Assembly: GCA_027001995.1 (NCBI GenBank)
Contig: JALTLO010000148.1
Location: 1 to 40,110, forward strand
Source of the DNA: Planctomycetota bacterium
GTDB lineage: Bacteria > Planctomycetota > GCA-002687715 > DRQF01
Direction of reading: 5' to 3'
DNA: 40,110 bases
This document shows positions 21,001-27,000 of this stretch, in pieces. A program made the position numbers. The stretch's first letter is position 1, and every line of letters begins with the position of its first letter.

Positions 21001-24000
21001 CTGAGACGACGTGGCATGAACGCTGGTCAAATTCATATCGACGAACATGTCACCTCGGGGGACTTCAACAAGCAGACGGTCCCCGTCGCTTTGGCAGCTC
21101 GAAAGCAAACACATGGCCACAACGATCAAACCGAAGAACCTAAACATGGGGGTCCCCTTCTTTGGGCTTTCACTTGAAAAGTCGAAAATGACGATCTTCC
21201 ACCATCGACTTCCTGAAAAGCAAATCTTCCACTGCCAGCCTTATCGGCTTTGTAGCAGCATCTTATGAACAAGGAATCCCTTCACGGAAGGGAAATCATT
21301 TGCCCATCATGGCAAAGGGTCGTTTCTATCAAGGCATTGTCCGCCCCCCCGGGGCATTGAACCATAAACTGCGATCGCAATTAGCCTTAGGCCTCTTTCG
21401 CTGGCGCTGTAGAAAGTTGTGTCCCCATGGACATGATGGCGCGGTCATGGGGTTTTCTCTGATTTAGGAAATCCTCCCGCACCTTTGCTGGCATGATCAT
21501 GCGAGTCACCCTGGACTGCCATCCGACTTTTCGGACGGGGCAGAGCAAGTGAAAGTTCCTAAGTCGTTGGCCTCATTAACTCCGCTTAGACTCCCAGAAC
21601 TCGACTTCTCCCCTTAGGAAAGCAATAATTCCATCAGTGAATCTTTCCCGAACCCTGCCAATCTCGAGGCCAAAGGACTATCATCTTTCCGTACCGAGTT
21701 TTCTGGAGATCGATCTTTGTCCGATAACACAATATCCCCTTTGGCTGGCCTTCCTGCCGTGGGTTTGATCATCGACATGCTCAAAGCCAAAGGAACTCCC
21801 ATCTCCCAAGTGGATCCCCAACTCTTGGCGCACCTCACAAGATCGGTCATTGATTCGGTGCGTTCCACCCTCAAGTCCGAACTCCGCCAGAAAAGAGACG
21901 TCCAAAAACCAAGTAACGAAGAGATCATAGAACAAGTCGAGCAAGCATTTGCGATCTGGAGTACATCCTCCACTTGCCGTGTTATCAACGGCTCGGGCAT
22001 CATTCTCCATTCAGGTTTAGGCCGGGCAGTTTATCCCCAAGAGGCCAGGGAGCAGATCGCCCAAGCTCAGGGCTACACGCTCTTAGAGGTTGAAAAAGAA
22101 ACCGGTGGGCGTCGTTGGCGAGATCAGTTCTGCGCTGATCTCTTATGCAGTTTGACGGGAGCCGAGGCAGCAACGGTGGTCAACAACAATGCTGCAGCCA
22201 CTCTTATCATTCTCAACGAGTTGGGATTAGAAAAGGAAATCGTTGTCAGCCGTTCTCAAATGATCGAGATTGGCGGGTCTTTCCGGCTCCCCGACGTCTT
22301 CGAGGCCGCTGGCTGCAAGCTGGTTGAGGTAGGAACCACCAACAAGTCCCGTATTTCTGACTATGAAAAGGCCATGACCGAAAACACCGGGGCTCTGATG
22401 CTCGTCCACACGAGCAACTACCGCATCGTCGGTTTTACCGACCACGTGGACCTGCCAGAATTGGTCGCCTTAGGAGCAAAACAAAAAATCCCTGTTATCC
22501 ACGATGTCGGGAGTGGATCCTTGATTGACATGGGACAATTTGGGGTTCACGACGAGCCGGCGGTCCAGTTCAGTGTCAAAACAGGAGCCGATGTCATTTG
22601 CTTCTCTGGCGACAAGCTCATCGGTGGCCCCCAAGCGGGCATCATCATCGGTAAGAAAACCTGGATCGATCGAATTCGCAAGAACCCTCTGGCACGGGCT
22701 CTCCGCATCGACAAGACTGCCTGCTTGGCCCTAGAAGCCACCCTCAAACTCTATTTCGAACCAGACAAACTGCGACAGAAGATTCCAACTTTGGCCATGT
22801 TGTCTGAGCCCGCTTCCGCGGTAAAAAAACGAGCAGAGGAACTGGCCGCCCTAGTCAGAAATACCATCGCAAGTGATGTTGAAATCCGCGTGATCCCCTC
22901 CTCCAGCGAATTGGGTGCAGGGACCCTTCCCACTCATGGGATCGACACATTCGTCATGGCCGTTTCCTGGCCGCAGCACAGCGCTCAAACAATCGCTGAT
23001 CATCTGCGGGGCCGGGCTATTTCAATTTTTTCGCGTATTCGTGAAGACCAAGTTCAATTGGATCTACGCACCATGTCCCAGGACGACTTTGCCGAAGTTG
23101 TCTTAGCATTCGAGGAACTCAACCATGTCTAATTGTTCTCAGGACGGCCCTCGTATCCGACTCACGGAATATGCCAGCTCCGGTGGCTGAGCAGCAAAAT
23201 TATCCCCAGCGGGACTCGCTCAAGTCTTGAGCGGACTCACACAGCCAAAAGACGACAACCTCCTTGTGGGGTATGCTGGAGCGGACGATGCGGCGGTGTA
23301 TCGCATCAATGACCACCAAGCCATAGTCGCCACCACTGACTTCTTCCCCCCCATGGTCGATGATCCTTACGCATTCGGTGCGGTTGCTGCAGCCAACGCA
23401 CTTTCCGATGTATTCGCCATGGGCGGAAAGCCCTTGGTGGCCCTCAACATCGTTGGTTTCCCATCAAAGAAGCTTCCCTTGGAGGTGCTGACGGCGATTC
23501 TCCAAGGTGGTGCGGACAAAGTCAAGGAAGCTGAAGCCGTGATTGGAGGCGGACACACAGTCGAAGACCACGAAGTCAAGTACGGCTTGGCCGTCACCGG
23601 CGAAGTCCACCCAGACAGAATTTGGGCCAATGGAACTGTTCGTATCGACGACGCTGTCATCTTGACGAAACCTCTGGGAACCGGATTGATCAACAGTGCG
23701 GTAAAAGTCGATGGTGCCACGGGCCCGGCGGTCGATGGGGCCATTCGATGGATGAGCACCCTCAACGGCACAGGCATCTCTCATCTGCATGCTGCAGACA
23801 CATCTTGCGTCACTGACATCACAGGATTTGGACTTCTGGGACACGCCAGAGAGTTAGCTGCCTCAAGTCCTGCAACCATTGTCATCGACGCAAGCCTGGT
23901 GCCCACCATCATCGGCATAGAGAAATACTTTCAAGACCGCTTCAAGACTCGGGGCGCCCGAGAAACACGGGAGTACACCGAAAATTCGGTTTCTCTGCCG

Positions 24001-27000
24001 GAGAACCTAGATCCCTGGAGAAACGAAGTTCTATTCGATCCTCAGACCTCCGGAGGATTACTCCTTACAGTCCGCCAAGAACAGGCTGATGATCTCGTCA
24101 AGAAACTCCAAGATTCTGGATTGGAACAAGCTGCGATCATTGGCTCGGTGGAAGCTGAAAAGACACCAGGCCTCAAAGTGCGCGTTATCGGTGGGTAGTC
24201 TCAGGTCACTCCTTACTCATCGCCATTGGACAGCCTCTCATGAAGGCGTTTTATTTCCTCCTTTGACTCAAACCTTGATCAAAGTGGCGGAATCCTGTAA
24301 ACCCTTCTGCAACGAGGGAGCGGTTCTCGTGCTGGTGCCGGGTCCGGATTTCAAATCCGGTGAAACGGGCAAATAACTCGTTTGGTGGGTTCGATTCCCA
24401 TGCGCTCCCGCCAGATTCAAGAAGGCAGAAACCCAGAGGGTTTCTGCCTTTTTTTCATCCGCCGACGAGCCCTATCTGCTTTCTTCCGGTTAGCCCGAAT
24501 AATTCACAACCTCTCACCGTCGCCAAGGGTGGCATAACGCCCTTTTCTCAGCCAACGACCACGATCTCATGAATCAGTCGGGTTCGGCAGGTGAACCTCG
24601 GCCTTTTCCGGACCCTATGGCAGAGCCTGAGAGGTTCAAGACTTAGGCTTCACATCAAAGAGACGGTCTATGAGAGGACCATAGCCTTGAATCGCAAGAC
24701 GCTGACAATAGAAGCCAACTCCTCGCATGCCTCCCAATTCTTCCCCGTCTCCCGCCCTCCCTGGGCCCCCGTGAATGAAATCAGGAAAGACAGTTCCCGG
24801 GCTTGGAGCGGCCCCAGCTGAGCGTTTCGAGCCCCAAACAAGGCGCCCTTGGAAGGAACCCATCTCTTCAATGAGTTCGGCCGCGAAGGTGCGATCGTCA
24901 CTGTAGAAACTTGCGACCAAACCGCCCCCACCCAAACCGGCAATGCGAGCAGCTTCACAAGCGCTGCCATCATAGGGGATCAAAGTTGTGACGGGCCCAA
25001 AGACTTCAACCTCATGGACATGGGTGGCCTCATCCGCTGAGTTCGCTTCCAAGACAATGGGAGGCATGAAGGCTCCCTTGTGGTCAGGATCATCGATAGC
25101 AGTGAAATTGTCAGGGTCGCCAATAACCCGAGAAGTGCAGGTCAGAAGAACATCCAGTTTTTTTCTAGCATCCAGAAGTTGCTGAGGACCTGACAGAGGT
25201 CCCATGCGGACCCCTTCCGAGTCTGGCATCCCCATTTTCACCCGAGCAATTTCGCTTTCGAGGCGAGGTTTCAGCTCTTCTAAGCGCTCAATGGGAACCA
25301 TCACCCGACGAATCGCTGTACACTTTTGTCCGGCTTTTTGGGTGATATCTGTCACCACATCCCGCACGAACAGATCAAAGGTGTCCGAATCTGTGTCCAC
25401 ATCGGCCCCGAGAATGGCACAGTTGAGGCTATCAGCCTCGATACCGATTCTGACCCCCTTTTCCAGGACCCGTGGATGGGAACGCATCATGGCTCCTGTA
25501 GCAGCAGAACCAGTAAAAGCGATGCAATCTTGAAAATCCAAATGATCGAGAAGATCACCCGCAGAACCGGTAAGAAGGCTCAAGGATCCTTCGGGCATGA
25601 AACCAGCATCCACAATGATCTCCACGATGCGCACTGTCATCATGCAGGTCAAAGTAGCTGGTTTCGAGAAAATTGGCATTCCCGCCAAAATAGCGCAGGC
25701 GGCTTTTTCCATCATGCCCCATGCCGGGAAGTTATAGGCATTGATAAGAACCGCAACGCCCTTTCTCGGTACCATGACGTGGCGTCCCTGCATCCTAGAG
25801 CTTTGCCCCATGTCTTGGGCTTCGCCGTCCAACCAATGACGGGTTTCTCCCATTGTTTTGCCAATACTGGCGTAGCGAGCCAAAGTACCAATGGCACCAT
25901 CAATATCGAATTTTGCGTCTCCCCGGGTATTGCCGGCATTCTTCATACCCAAAGTGATGAGCTCTTCACGGTGCTCATGGATGGCCCCAGCCATGGACTT
26001 CAAAAGTCCGGCCCGCTCCAAGAACGTCATGCTACGGAGGGCTTTGCCGCCTTTCTCCCGAGCAAAACGAAGAGCTGCATCGAGGTCCAACCCCTTGGTA
26101 CTCACATGGGCCAACTCTTCATGGGTTGCCGGATTCACCAAGGTTCCTTGGACTCCTTCACCTTCCGCCCATTGGCCAGACACATAGTTTCTTAGTTTCT
26201 GCATGATTGATCTTTCTGCTCAGGTTCAGCTCAAGGGTATTTTTAACCACAGCGGGGCCCCTACGCGACCCCTCCCAGCAAATTGCCCTGGGGACGGATA
26301 GAAGATTTCAAGAATTCCGGGTGCACCGGTACGAAAAAAGACGCACCCGCCGGTGCGCCCTCTTTCTTATTTCGGAACTAACCCCAACTTAGGCTTTGGA
26401 TTCGTCCCAGTTTGGACCATTTTCTACGTCATCTTTATCGGTGACGTTATTGTCGTCGGTATGGTCAAAATCCGCATTCATTTGAATGTATTCTTCTGGC
26501 GTGTGGTTCACATAAAGCTCTGGGTTGGAGGGACCATCATCGTCGACGAAGATCGCTCCCACAGGGCAAAGGGGCAAGCACTCGCCACAATCAATACAGG
26601 TGTCTGGATTGATGTATAGGCTCGTGGGACCTTGGTGGAAACTATCTACGGGGCACTCAGTTACGCAATCCCCATACTTGCAATCGACACAGGGCTCTCC
26701 AATCACATGTGGCATGTGAAAATCTCCTTTCGTCACGCTGATCCATCCTGGGTGTCGGCACCATTTGGGTACCGATCACTTGCACAATGGCAAGACGATA
26801 TACCCACCGGGGTCCAATGTGAAGAGTCAATTGGGTTTTAACTTCCCACTCACCAAAGAGTTGCGACTGATTCTCATTTAGACTACAAGAAAGAGGAGAA
26901 ACCGAAGGAATTGTAATTCAAGTGGACCGTCCAACTCACAATGTTGTGAAAAGAAAGCCAGGATTGGCTAAACAATCTGGCCGATGATCTACACAGATTG

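What a model noticed while it worked through the whole genome (the two positions that open the first line are those of the whole stretch)
21717..24413. A selenoproteome of at least 28 genes (31 Sec codons) in a planctomycete, about a third of it in families not yet listed [...]
Beside the Sec machinery (selA g03010, a Sec-containing selD whose true start lies upstream of g03011 across UGA at C148:23188, tRNA-Sec at C148:24316-24413, selB g00209 on C17) the genome holds at least 28 genes with in-frame UGA read as Sec; the gene caller split or truncated every one. Three proteins carry two Sec. Known families: FdhA, SelD, DsbD-like, Prx, AhpD-like, CMD-like, DUF3179, UGSC, Trx7/PDZ, VPGUxxT type 2, seven TlpA/ResA-like W-U-G-P-C or related proteins. 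Ten or eleven are in families absent from the 2026 catalogue of 119 (ten are reported here as separate findings; the other is the Trx7-like protein C44:5279-6220, motif U-P-P-C). SECIS elements of this lineage are simple: [...]
Evidence so far: Loci (contig:start-end): C20:23030-25408, C22:50951-51508, C27:3580-4635 (2 Sec), C43:32363-33385, C44:5279-6220, C58:36950-37972, C68:54414-55418 (2 Sec), C76:34699-35772, C86:28216-29556, C88:68375-69277, C105:26842-27996, C105:28264-28731, C138:5419-6636, C141:48331-49914, C179:5950-7713, C185:294-863, C197:62470-65187, C148:23125-24200 (selD), C58:59522-61543, C105:3368-4453, C155:3397-3990 (2 Sec), C99:23343-24587, C56:6423-7610, C49:25403-28252, C78:48619-50211, C177:9891-11078, C141:23463-23696, C84:679-1674. 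NCBIfam selenoprotein models hit C27 (NF041383, 317 bits) and C86 (NF041199, 361 bits). UGA kept in orthologues for each of the 11 loci tested in relatives; as a negative control [...]
(Added by a program. Inside this text positions count along the whole contig: contig position 1 is position 1 of the stretch shown here. "Call 12" and the like, gene names such as g00115 and contig names such as C1 are that model's own, and its searches are not shown. The text may have been shortened before it was handed on; [...] marks where a part breaks off. The agent that wrote the report below was given it as the finding of a first reader that could run no searches.)

Follow-up and report, generated by a model that had tools for sequence, protein, structure and literature searches.

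The report
Large planctomycete selenoproteome, a dozen unlisted families
This planctomycete genome carries the full machinery for the 21st amino acid, selenocysteine, and uses it in at least 30 mostly exported proteins, about a dozen of which belong to protein families not yet recorded as selenoproteins.

Summary
Confirmed, with corrections. The window holds selA (21717-23132), a selenocysteine-containing selD (23125-24198, UGA at 23188-23190) and tRNA-Sec (24316-24413). selB lies on C17.

All 28 listed loci are single frames broken only by TGA.
- For 12 loci without a listed selenoprotein family, I searched the 22 other genomes of the order (8 of the family for C44). The TGA sits in the same alignment column, inside conserved motifs, in nearly every relative that covers it.
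- Cys forms exist for at least four of these families.
- A hairpin with a GU-containing loop follows 24 of 32 sites, against 5.7% of control codons.

The list is a floor. I found two more genes: C197:20351-21643 (two UGA) and C178:9067-9402 (ArsC-like). That makes at least 30 genes and 34 UGA.

C88 is not a member of the UGSC family model, so 12 of the 30 are in unlisted families. One of them (C177, motif C-U-G) keeps its TGA in 74 of 80 loci from Planctomycetota MAGs. Public gene calls truncate it there.

The mechanism is ordinary bacterial Sec decoding. The news is the breadth, the folds involved and the mostly exported location (24 of 30). No selenium incorporation is shown.

The parts
21717..23132 (+). 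selA, L-seryl-tRNA(Sec) selenium transferase (471 aa, TTG start as listed). Its TAA stop at 23130-23132 overlaps the selD start by 8 nt.
   Evidence: TIGR00474 511.1 bits (cut-off 267.9), PF03841 455.1 bits. Overlap ATGTCTAA read.
23125..24198 (+). selD, selenide-water dikinase, itself a selenoprotein (357 aa, motif U-A-A-K). The stop is TAG 24196-24198.
   Evidence: TIGR00476 363.4 bits (cut-off 125) over residues 12-320, which includes the U. Translation. The motif UxxK is listed for SelD in Table 1 of PMC13188914.
23188..23190 (+). In-frame TGA of selD, read as Sec (residue 22).
23211..23238 (+). SECIS-like hairpin of selD. The core stem is CGCTCAA/TTGAGCG (23217-23233), with an apical loop GUC (AGUCU) starting 33-34 nt after the UGA.
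   Evidence: Best single hairpin -9.7 kcal/mol. It passes the GU-loop test with a 7-8 bp stem.
24316..24413 (+). tRNA-Sec (anticodon UCA), 117 nt after the selD stop.
   Evidence: ARAGORN. Rfam RF01852 68.2 bits, gathering score 47.
24424..24455 (+). Probable intrinsic terminator after tRNA-Sec: stem GGCAGAAACCC/GGGTTTCTGCC followed by T7.
   Evidence: Read. The fold is -24.7 kcal/mol. The consensus scan did not list it.

Best explanation
The window carries a compact selA-selD-tRNA-Sec operon of a Planctomycetota MAG. Together with selB on contig C17 this is a complete bacterial selenocysteine-decoding system, and SelD itself contains Sec.

The system recodes in-frame UGA in at least 30 genes (at least 34 codons). 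Recoding is presumably directed by a short hairpin 15-35 nt downstream of the UGA. Its 3-7 nt apical loop carries GU (GGUC, AGUU, GUU or CGUGN), which is the kind of element that SelB binds in E. coli.

Eighteen genes lie in families already known to use Sec:
- FdhA, SelD, Prx and a DsbD-like protein;
- two AhpD-like proteins and DUF3179;
- two Trx7/PDZ proteins and VPGUxxT type 2;
- seven TlpA/ResA-like proteins and ArsC.

Twelve lie in families absent from the 2026 catalogue:
- two FG-GAP/ASPIC beta-propeller proteins;
- a BNR-like protein;
- a CzcB-type efflux adaptor;
- an HMA-like double selenoprotein;
- seven proteins with no recognised domain.

Twenty-four of the 30 have an N-terminal hydrophobic segment. 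The Sec residues therefore work mostly outside the cytoplasm, most likely as redox-active or metal-binding replacements for Cys.

Shown here: the genes, frames, hairpins, conservation of the UGA and Sec/Cys pairs. Inferred: actual Sec insertion, SelB binding to these hairpins, export and function.
For: Machinery.

Frames.

U at the known Sec/Cys position of listed families, each as the observed residues, then the listed motif:
- FdhA: U-H-A-P (UHxP);
- SelD: U-A-A-K (UxxK);
- Prx: T-P-T-U (TxxU);
- AhpD-like: C-H-Y-U (CxxU);
- DUF3179: U-P-L-C (UxxC);
- Trx7/PDZ: C-V-P-U (CxxU);
- V-P-G-U;
- W-U-G-P-C.

In this genome 8 of 10 above-cut-off Redoxin matches carry a TGA.

Relatives with a TGA among the non-self matches that span the site:
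- C105:3368: 25 of 25;
- C155: 15 of 15 with at least 2 TGA;
- C99: 9 of 9;
- C56:6423: 5 of 5;
- C49: 18 of 18;
- C78: 2 of 2;
- C177: 26 of 26 strong matches, in 18 of the 22 other genomes;
- C84: 7 of 7;
- C141:23463: 9 of 10, the other Cys;
- C88: 14 of 14;
- C44: 4 of 6, the others Cys and Ser;
- C58:59522: 1 of 1.
Wherever a fetched locus truly spanned the site, the stop lay in the same column or one column off.

Sec/Cys pairs:
- 57 full-length homologues of C105:3368 have IYCCIG against NWUCIG.
- The C177 family has GGCCGGG forms.
- C58:59522 has C-P-L-U against C-G-T-C in its own internal repeat.

Hairpins: 24 of 32 sites against a 5.7% background. Out of sample in relatives: 4/4, 18/18, 1/1, 11/11, 2/2, 8/8 and 11/11 for seven families.

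TGA is an ordinary stop for 1033 of 2423 long ORFs.
Against: - There is no biochemical evidence of Se incorporation.
- The hairpin criteria were set after looking at the sites.
- Three well-conserved families fail the strict hairpin test in relatives: C99 0 of 9, C56:6423 0 of 5 and C177 6 of 56. The RNAalifold consensus for C99 is weak, at -2.45 kcal/mol.
- Only the FdhA element resembles an Rfam SECIS family, and that match is below gathering (RF01989, 39.5 against 63 bits, run on L001-L020 only).
- C141:48331 had no match in five relatives at E <= 1e-20.
- C58:59522 and C78 are supported only by same-genus genomes.
- Relatives are kin, so the counts are not independent.
- My genome screen cannot see Sec close to either protein end or closely paired UGA, so completeness is not shown.
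Confidence: 0.85

Rival explanations
1. Some of the listed loci are not selenoprotein genes. They would be pseudogenes, or pairs of adjacent same-frame genes, in which TGA is a true stop.
For: Many such frames arise by chance. 1064 TGA-bridged frames pass my loose coding filter, and 58 unlisted ones also carry a GU-loop hairpin, which is about what a 5.7% background predicts. C141:48331 has no relative in the five genomes searched. The excluded C56:7728 has no hairpin, and 19 of its 20 matches in relatives have no TGA.
Against: For the 12 families tested, the TGA sits in one conserved column within motifs conserved on both sides, at 27-80% identity. Pfam or NCBIfam domains run across the TGA in the known families. 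Cys forms align with the U.
Confidence: 0.07
2. UGA is read in this lineage by something other than the Sec system: a general reassignment (Trp or Gly), or Cys inserted at UGA.
For: One public gene call in the C105:3368 family (P0053) shows W at the U column. This is most simply a call made under a TGA=Trp code.
Against: TGA ends 1033 of 2423 long ORFs. The complete set selA, selB, selD and tRNA-Sec is present. The recoded positions align with Cys, not Trp or Gly. Specific hairpins follow them.
Confidence: 0.02
3. The genes are real selenoprotein genes, but the 'unlisted' families are already on record somewhere I could not search. Possible places are BSepDB entries, RefSeq selenoprotein annotations, supplements and subscription journals. 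In that case nothing here is new beyond a census.
For: New bacterial selenoprotein families are added every year (PMC13188914 Table 1; nine in PMC12013277). BSepDB itself and the supplements of PMC4807772 (S9 Table) were not seen. C155 is a distant relative of listed metal-binding selenoproteins (NF041115 20.8 bits, cut-off 95).
Against: - None of the 12 reaches any NCBIfam (release 20, June 2026) selenoprotein model. Their Pfam domains (FG-GAP, BNR_2, UnbV_ASPIC, HlyD_D23) are not in Table 1.
- All 51 public homologues of C177 found are 229-357 aa (49 of them 327-357, i.e. cut at the UGA). Those that carry a name are called hypothetical protein.
- 60 of the 120 best homologues of C105:3368 are fragments under 300 aa.
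- Full-text searches for 'FG-GAP' with 'selenoprotein' gave 4 unrelated papers. 'Selenoprotein', 'membrane fusion protein', 'SECIS' and 'efflux' together gave none.
- The word Planctomycet is absent from the main texts of PMC13188914, PMC13326102 and PMC12013277.
Confidence: 0.2

Closest known systems
E. coli Sec-decoding system (selA, selB, selC, selD) and the fdhF SECIS
   Same: The same four components are present. UGA is followed by a short hairpin with GU in the apical loop. Several loops here read GGUC, as I recall for fdhF (recalled, not from a call). The C177 family hairpin has a bulged U.
   Different: Here selA, selD and tRNA-Sec form one cluster and selB is elsewhere. SelD itself contains Sec. 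About 30 targets instead of three. Two loop classes occur, (G/A)GU(C/U) and CGUGN. Only the FdhA element matches an Rfam SECIS model, weakly.
Marine-metagenome selenoproteomes (Sargasso Sea and GOS studies; refs 59 and 61 of PMC13188914)
   Same: Dominated by thioredoxin-fold proteins: TlpA/Prx-like, AhpD-like, Trx7/PDZ, VPGUxxT, DUF3179 and ArsC. All of these occur here.
   Different: Those were lists pooled from many organisms. Here they sit in one genome, next to 12 families that those lists and Table 1 do not hold.
Selenoprotein-rich Desulfobacterota and Nitrospinota (BSepDB top ten, 63 down to roughly 50 genes; PMC13326102, passage seen)
   Same: Large single-genome selenoproteomes built by replacing Cys with Sec in many redox proteins.
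   Different: At 30 or more genes this genome is smaller than those records. It lies in another phylum and has few of the anaerobic energy-metabolism selenoenzymes (only FdhA). It is mostly exported proteins (24 of 30).
Planctomycetes P1 and P2 from Porphyra (PMC4807772, passages seen)
   Same: Planctomycetes with full Sec insertion genes and selenoproteins, including FdhA.
   Different: That paper's main text names only a few selenoproteins (six with antioxidant activity in P1). Its S9 Table was not seen. It describes no FG-GAP, BNR, efflux-adaptor or C-U-G families in the passages I read.

Membership tests
Bacterial Sec-decoding trait | selA present | tested here: met
   TIGR00474 511.1 bits against cut-off 267.9.
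Bacterial Sec-decoding trait | selB present | tested here: met
   C17:34238-36124(-), TIGR00475 334.3 bits against cut-off 242.25.
Bacterial Sec-decoding trait | selD present | tested here: met
   TIGR00476 363.4 bits against cut-off 125.
Bacterial Sec-decoding trait | tRNA-Sec with anticodon UCA | tested here: met
   ARAGORN. RF01852 68.2 bits against gathering score 47.
Bacterial SECIS element | Stem-loop shortly downstream of UGA with G/U in the apical loop (criteria recalled from the bSECISearch model and E. coli work) | tested here: met
   24 of 32 sites pass strictly, against a 5.7% background. 55 of 55 sites pass in relatives of seven families. C177 has a bulged variant, and C56:6423 has a GU loop at +43 to +46. 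C99 is unclear.
Rfam SECIS families (RF01988-RF01991 class) | Score at or above the gathering threshold | tested here: not met
   On L001-L020 only FdhA matched: RF01989 at 39.5 bits against gathering 63, E 7e-6. L021-L030 and selD were not scanned at the E-value threshold. The window at gathering gave only tRNAs.
Selenoprotein (computational standard) | In-frame UGA conserved in orthologues, with conserved sequence on both sides | tested here: met
   Met for 12 unlisted-family loci plus C197:20351 and C178. Not tested by me for the other 15 known-family loci. Not met for C141:48331, which had no relative.
Selenoprotein (computational standard) | Homologues with Cys in place of Sec | tested here: met
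   Seen for the C105:3368 family (57 proteins), C177, C44 and C141:23463, and C58:59522 through its internal repeat. Not looked for in C99, C56:6423, C49, C78, C84, C88 or C155.
NF041199 Trx7/PDZ (seleno)protein | Score above 300 bits and the CxxU motif | tested here: met
   C86 scores 360.7 bits. C197:20351 scores 347.6 bits and has U-V-P-U.
NF041383 VPGUxxT type 2 | Score above 275 bits and the VPGU motif | tested here: met
   C27 scores 316.8 bits and has EVPGU. It carries a second U in an MsrA-like G-M-S-U-Y-W stretch.
NF041046 UGSC family | Match to the family model (cut-off 125 bits) | tested here: not met
   C88 has no NCBIfam hit at E <= 0.001. The model finds nothing in the genome. 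That search rang in no control genome either, so it is weak on its own.
NF041115 UxxU metal-binding selenoprotein | Score above 95 bits and the UxxU motif | tested here: not met
   C155 scores 20.8 bits. Its motifs are G-U-G-A-A and A-U-Q-K-T (U-x-x-C in relatives).
TIGR00014 arsenate reductase (listed selenoprotein, UxxS) | Score above 106.05 bits | tested here: not met
   C178 scores 75.8 bits, so it is ArsC/Spx superfamily only. Its motif is U-G-T-C. I file it as ArsC-like, not as an equivalog.

The most novel reading that the evidence does not exclude
A whole order of Planctomycetota runs an expanded, mainly extracytoplasmic selenoproteome.
- Nearly all TlpA-type oxidoreductases have switched from Cys to Sec.
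- Sec has spread into folds never recorded as selenoproteins: FG-GAP/ASPIC beta-propellers, a BNR-like protein, a metal-efflux adaptor, and several domain-less secreted proteins.
- One of these families (C177 type, motif C-U-G or U-U-G) is found across the phylum and is truncated at the UGA in most public gene calls seen.
If so, there are a dozen new selenoprotein families, and a lineage-specific SECIS rule that finds them.
Probability: 0.7. Interest if true: 0.7.

Novelty: new member of a known kind. Interest (0 to 1): 0.6.

Why it matters
- A recent dedicated method paper added nine selenoprotein families from 20 genomes (PMC12013277). Twelve from one genome would enlarge the 119-family catalogue by about a tenth.
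- It would put Sec into beta-propeller, sialidase-like and efflux-adaptor proteins, where its chemistry is unexplained.
- It shows that gene calls for Planctomycetota are systematically truncated or split at these sites.
- It gives a simple hairpin rule that held in relatives for seven families.
- Relatives of the C177 family are labelled Rubripirellula, Rhodopirellula and Fuerstiella. I recall that these genera have cultured members, so the predictions should be testable at the bench.

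Tried and rejected
- A codon-usage log-odds screen over 25-codon windows was too noisy: only 13 of 32 listed sites passed. I replaced it with a 4th-order periodic Markov score.
- A scan for closely paired TGA without a coding filter gave 1882 hits and was useless.
- From my screen, four extra candidates (C88:26206, C7:11153, C202:43100, C66:22119) had no NCBIfam hit. A fifth, C174:7619, was fetched as L034 but never scanned. C55:5076, C172 and others looked like gene junctions or antisense frames on reading. None was pursued.
- Searches of the genome's own sequence with PF13899, PF00085, PF02627 and PF13098 found no further TGA-bearing genes.
- An AlphaFold2 model of the C177 family was all-beta with mean pLDDT 68.8. 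Foldseek against PDB found nothing real (TM <= 0.16), so there is no functional lead.
- RNAalifold on the C99 family gave a weak consensus.
- The ESM Atlas tool does not accept TGA read-through proteins, so no look-alike search was made.
- The terminator scan did not list the hairpin after tRNA-Sec that folding shows.
- The promoter-like hits upstream of selA are at chance level: 3 found against 1.7 expected.

Full report
THE LOCUS IN THE WINDOW

The + strand at 21717-24413 carries three elements.
- selA (21717-23132) scores TIGR00474 511.1 bits against a cut-off of 267.9, and PF03841 455 bits.
- selD starts at ATG 23125, which overlaps the selA stop by 8 nt (ATGTCTAA). It has an in-frame TGA at 23188-23190 (residue 22, SSGG-U-AAK) and ends with TAG at 24196-24198. 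Read through, it scores TIGR00476 363.4 bits against a cut-off of 125, and the match covers the U. U-A-A-K fits the UxxK motif listed for SelD (PMC13188914 Table 1).
- tRNA-Sec (24316-24413) lies 117 nt downstream. ARAGORN gives anticodon UCA and Rfam RF01852 scores 68.2 bits against a gathering score of 47.

A strong hairpin followed by T7 comes next (24424-24455; -24.7 kcal/mol). The consensus scan did not list it.

The neighbours are unrelated: a glycosyltransferase/sulfotransferase and tRNA-Pro upstream on the other strand, and an aldehyde dehydrogenase downstream on the other strand.

selB is at C17:34238-36124(-), TIGR00475 334.3 bits against a cut-off of 242.25.

The genome is 5.22 Mb in 204 contigs with 51.7% G+C. 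It is 92.12% complete with 2.62% contamination.

Records holding the nearest relatives of one of its genes are titled Planctomycetota bacterium. More distant ones are titled Rubripirellula, Rhodopirellula, Fuerstiella, Aureliella, Pirellulaceae and Planctomycetaceae. 'A planctomycete' therefore stands.

THE 28 LISTED LOCI

Every locus is a single frame with no stop other than TGA. There are 31 internal TGA, two each in C27, C68 and C155. The excluded C56:7728 has one.

Sixteen loci fall in families already known to use Sec, with the U at the expected residue (motifs from Table 1):
- FdhA: TIGR01591 736.8 bits, U-H-A-P.
- SelD.
- Prx: PF00578 123 bits, T-P-T-U.
- C22 and C185: both TIGR01926 AhpD-like (132.9 and 160.6 bits, cut-off 81.8), C-H-Y-U.
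- DUF3179: PF11376 180.6 bits, W-U-P-L-C.
- C86: NF041199 360.7 bits.
- C27: NF041383 316.8 bits. Its second U lies in an MsrA-like G-M-S-U-Y-W stretch.
- A DsbD-like protein: T-U-P-N-C in a Thioredoxin_7 domain.
- Seven TlpA/ResA-like proteins: six with W-U-G-P-C, and C141:48331 with S-U-L-T-C.

In this genome 8 of the 10 Redoxin matches above cut-off contain a TGA. So do 5 of 10 Thioredoxin_7 matches.

THE 12 LOCI WITHOUT A LISTED FAMILY

- C44, C88, C78, C177, C141:23463 and C84 have no Pfam or NCBIfam hit at E <= 0.001.
- C56:6423 and C155 have only faint NCBIfam hits.
- C105:3368 and C49 are FG-GAP (C49 also UnbV_ASPIC).
- C99 is BNR_2.
- C58:59522 is an HlyD_D23/CzcB-type adaptor.

None of these domains is in Table 1.

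NF041046 does not match it and finds nothing in the genome (that search rang in no control genome either). Its relatives mostly read U-G-P-C.

I searched each protein in the 22 other genomes of the order (in the 8 other genomes of the family for C44). Counting non-self matches that span the site, a TGA is present in:
- C105:3368: 25 of 25.
- C155: 15 of 15, with at least two TGA.
- C99: 9 of 9.
- C56:6423: 5 of 5.
- C49: 18 of 18.
- C78: 2 of 2, same genus only, at 32% identity.
- C177: 26 of 26 strong matches, in 18 of 22 genomes. A weaker class of paralogues, in reading frames of about 340-880 aa, has none.
- C84: 7 of 7.
- C141:23463: 9 of 10.
- C88: 14 of 14.
- C44: 4 of 6.
- C58:59522: 1 of 1, same genus, at 63% identity.

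A tblastn column check on the fetched loci put the stop in the same column in all but a few loci, and there one residue off. It lies inside motifs such as NNW-U-CIG, PG-U-PVNGP, KDT-U-S(V/F)YWR, FGGC-U-GGGF, HGFY-U-GPCWG and F(C/T)-U-(T/A)NA.

Where there is no TGA, the column holds Cys in the C44 family (L041) and the C141:23463 family (L158). It holds Ser once (L043).

SEC/CYS PAIRS BEYOND THE ORDER

C105:3368 family, the 120 best public homologues:
- 60 are fragments under 300 aa that stop short of the U column.
- 57 are full length with Cys (IYCCIG).
- One each shows W, S and D.

C177 family:
- All 51 hits of a word-based search are 229-357 aa (49 of them 327-357, i.e. cut at the UGA). Those that carry a name are called hypothetical protein.
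- A profile search of 1.84 billion representatives found 1125 proteins at E <= 0.001. Of the best 150, 65 end just before the U column. About two dozen more end at ...PGSC, one residue before it.
- About a dozen run through with Cys (GGCCGGG).
- A scan of one genome per species found 97 relatives and kept 80. Nearly all are titled as planctomycete MAGs; two bear Verrucomicrobiales labels and four are titled only 'uncultured bacterium'. 74 of the 80 carry the in-frame TGA in the motif, four of them as U-U.

C58:59522 carries C-P-L-U where its own internal repeat has C-G-T-C.

THE RECODING SIGNAL

The best hairpins after the UGA have apical loops GGUC, AGUU, GUU, GUC or CGUG(U/C), starting 17-35 nt downstream.

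I used a strict rule: at least 5 contiguous pairs of which at least 2 are G-C, a loop of 3-7 nt with GU at loop position 1-2 or 2-3, and a loop start at +14 to +36.
- 24 of 32 sites pass.
- Controls: 694 of 12121 in-frame Cys codons, 1147 of 20000 random codons and 57 of 1033 TGA stops of long ORFs. P is about 1e-23.
- The rule was written after seeing the sites, so I applied it to the TGA sites of relatives.
- It passed 4/4, 18/18, 1/1, 11/11, 2/2, 8/8 and 11/11 for the C44, C105:3368, C58:59522, C49, C78, C84 and C88 families.
- It passed 14/21 for C155 and 4/7 for C141:23463.
- It failed in 0/9 for C99, 0/5 for C56:6423 and 6/56 for C177.

C177 in fact has a conserved CGGUCAC-CGUG(C/A)-GUGUACCG hairpin whose bulged U breaks my rule. 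C56:6423 has a GU-loop hairpin at +43 to +46. C99 has strong individual folds but a weak consensus.

Rfam models caught only the FdhA element, below gathering (RF01989 39.5 against 63 bits, L001-L020 only).

That SelB recognises GU in the apical loop, and a bulged U, is recalled from E. coli work. It was not tested here.

COMPLETENESS

It scores NF041199 347.6 bits, carries F-R-U-V-P-U-R-D-C, and has an AGUU-loop hairpin. Its G008 orthologue, at 51% identity, also has two TGA.

My own screen turned up C178:9067-9402(-). It is an ArsC/Spx-family protein (TIGR00014 75.8 bits, below the cut-off of 106) with C-T-E-T-U-G-T-C and a GGUC-loop hairpin. Both same-genus orthologues keep the TGA.

Genome-wide, 1064 TGA-bridged frames pass a loose coding filter, including 31 of the 32 listed sites. 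82 of them have a hairpin. 24 of those are listed, and the 58 others match the roughly 59 expected by chance. There is therefore no large hidden set of this type. The screen is blind to Sec near protein ends and to paired UGA.

The floor is 30 genes and 34 UGA: 18 genes in listed or closely related families and 12 outside them.

LOCATION

24 of the 30 have an N-terminal hydrophobic segment by a simple hydropathy rule. The exceptions are the two AhpD-like proteins, Prx, FdhA, SelD and the ArsC-like protein. Export is inferred, not shown.

RIVALS

- General reassignment of TGA is excluded. TGA ends 1033 of 2423 long ORFs.
- Pseudogenes or gene pairs are excluded for the loci with a conserved column and motifs. 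This remains possible for C141:48331, which had no relative at 1e-20 in five genomes. It is likely undecidable for C56:7728: no hairpin, and 19 of 20 matches in relatives without TGA.
- The families might already be on record elsewhere, and I cannot exclude that. I did not see BSepDB, or the S9 Table of PMC4807772. I searched only open-access full text.

LITERATURE SEEN

- PMC13188914: section 7 parts 1-2, including the whole of Table 1, plus passages.
- PMC13326102, PMC4807772, PMC12013277 and PMC1794560: passages only.
- Other titles: search listings only.

VERDICT

The observation and the reading are sound, and the count is an underestimate. Mechanistically this is ordinary bacterial Sec decoding. 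The value lies in a dozen candidate new selenoprotein families, at least one of them found across the phylum, in an exported selenoproteome, and in a usable lineage SECIS rule. No selenium incorporation has been demonstrated.

Noticed in passing
G000:C197:20351-21643 (-), locus L029: A second Trx7/PDZ gene with two UGA three codons apart (F-R-U-V-P-U-R-D-C), missing from the list. The gene ends with TGA directly followed by TAA.
   Followed up: yes
G000:C178:9067-9402 (-), locus L030: An ArsC/Spx-family gene with U at residue 10 (U-G-T-C) and a GGUC-loop hairpin, missing from the list. The TGA is kept in both same-genus relatives.
   Followed up: yes
L129, L134 and other loci of the C177 family: Some members have two adjacent UGA (S-U-U-G) where others have C-U-G. 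Four of 80 phylum-wide loci show U-U. Tandem Sec codons served by a single hairpin would be unusual.
   Followed up: partly
L150 (G008:C2), C141:23463 family: The small membrane protein has U-P-S-U in one relative where this genome has U-P-N-C. This is a possible diselenide form.
   Followed up: no
L080, L085, L086, L091 (C155 family); L114 (C49 family): Relatives carry one more in-frame TGA than this genome's copy: three instead of two, and two instead of one. I did not check whether the extra TGA is a Sec site or the stop.
   Followed up: no
Protein P0053: A public gene call in the FG-GAP family shows Trp at the Sec column (N-W-W-C-I-G). The likely cause is a gene call made under a code that reads TGA as Trp.
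   Followed up: no
G000:C185:294-863, locus L016: The AhpD-like gene contains a short run of N (four X in the translation), so its sequence is incomplete.
   Followed up: no
G008:C143:10435-10977: One paralogue of the excluded locus C56:7728 in a same-genus genome has a TGA within the part that covers residue 188. The rest have none. The column was not checked.
   Followed up: no
G000:C49:25403-28252, locus L023: The ASPIC/FG-GAP selenoprotein also ends in a thioredoxin-like domain with an ordinary C-V-P-C motif. The Sec in the propeller part may work with a built-in redox partner.
   Followed up: no
window 20265-20339 (-): tRNA-Pro (UGG) lies 1.4 kb upstream of selA on the other strand.
   Followed up: no
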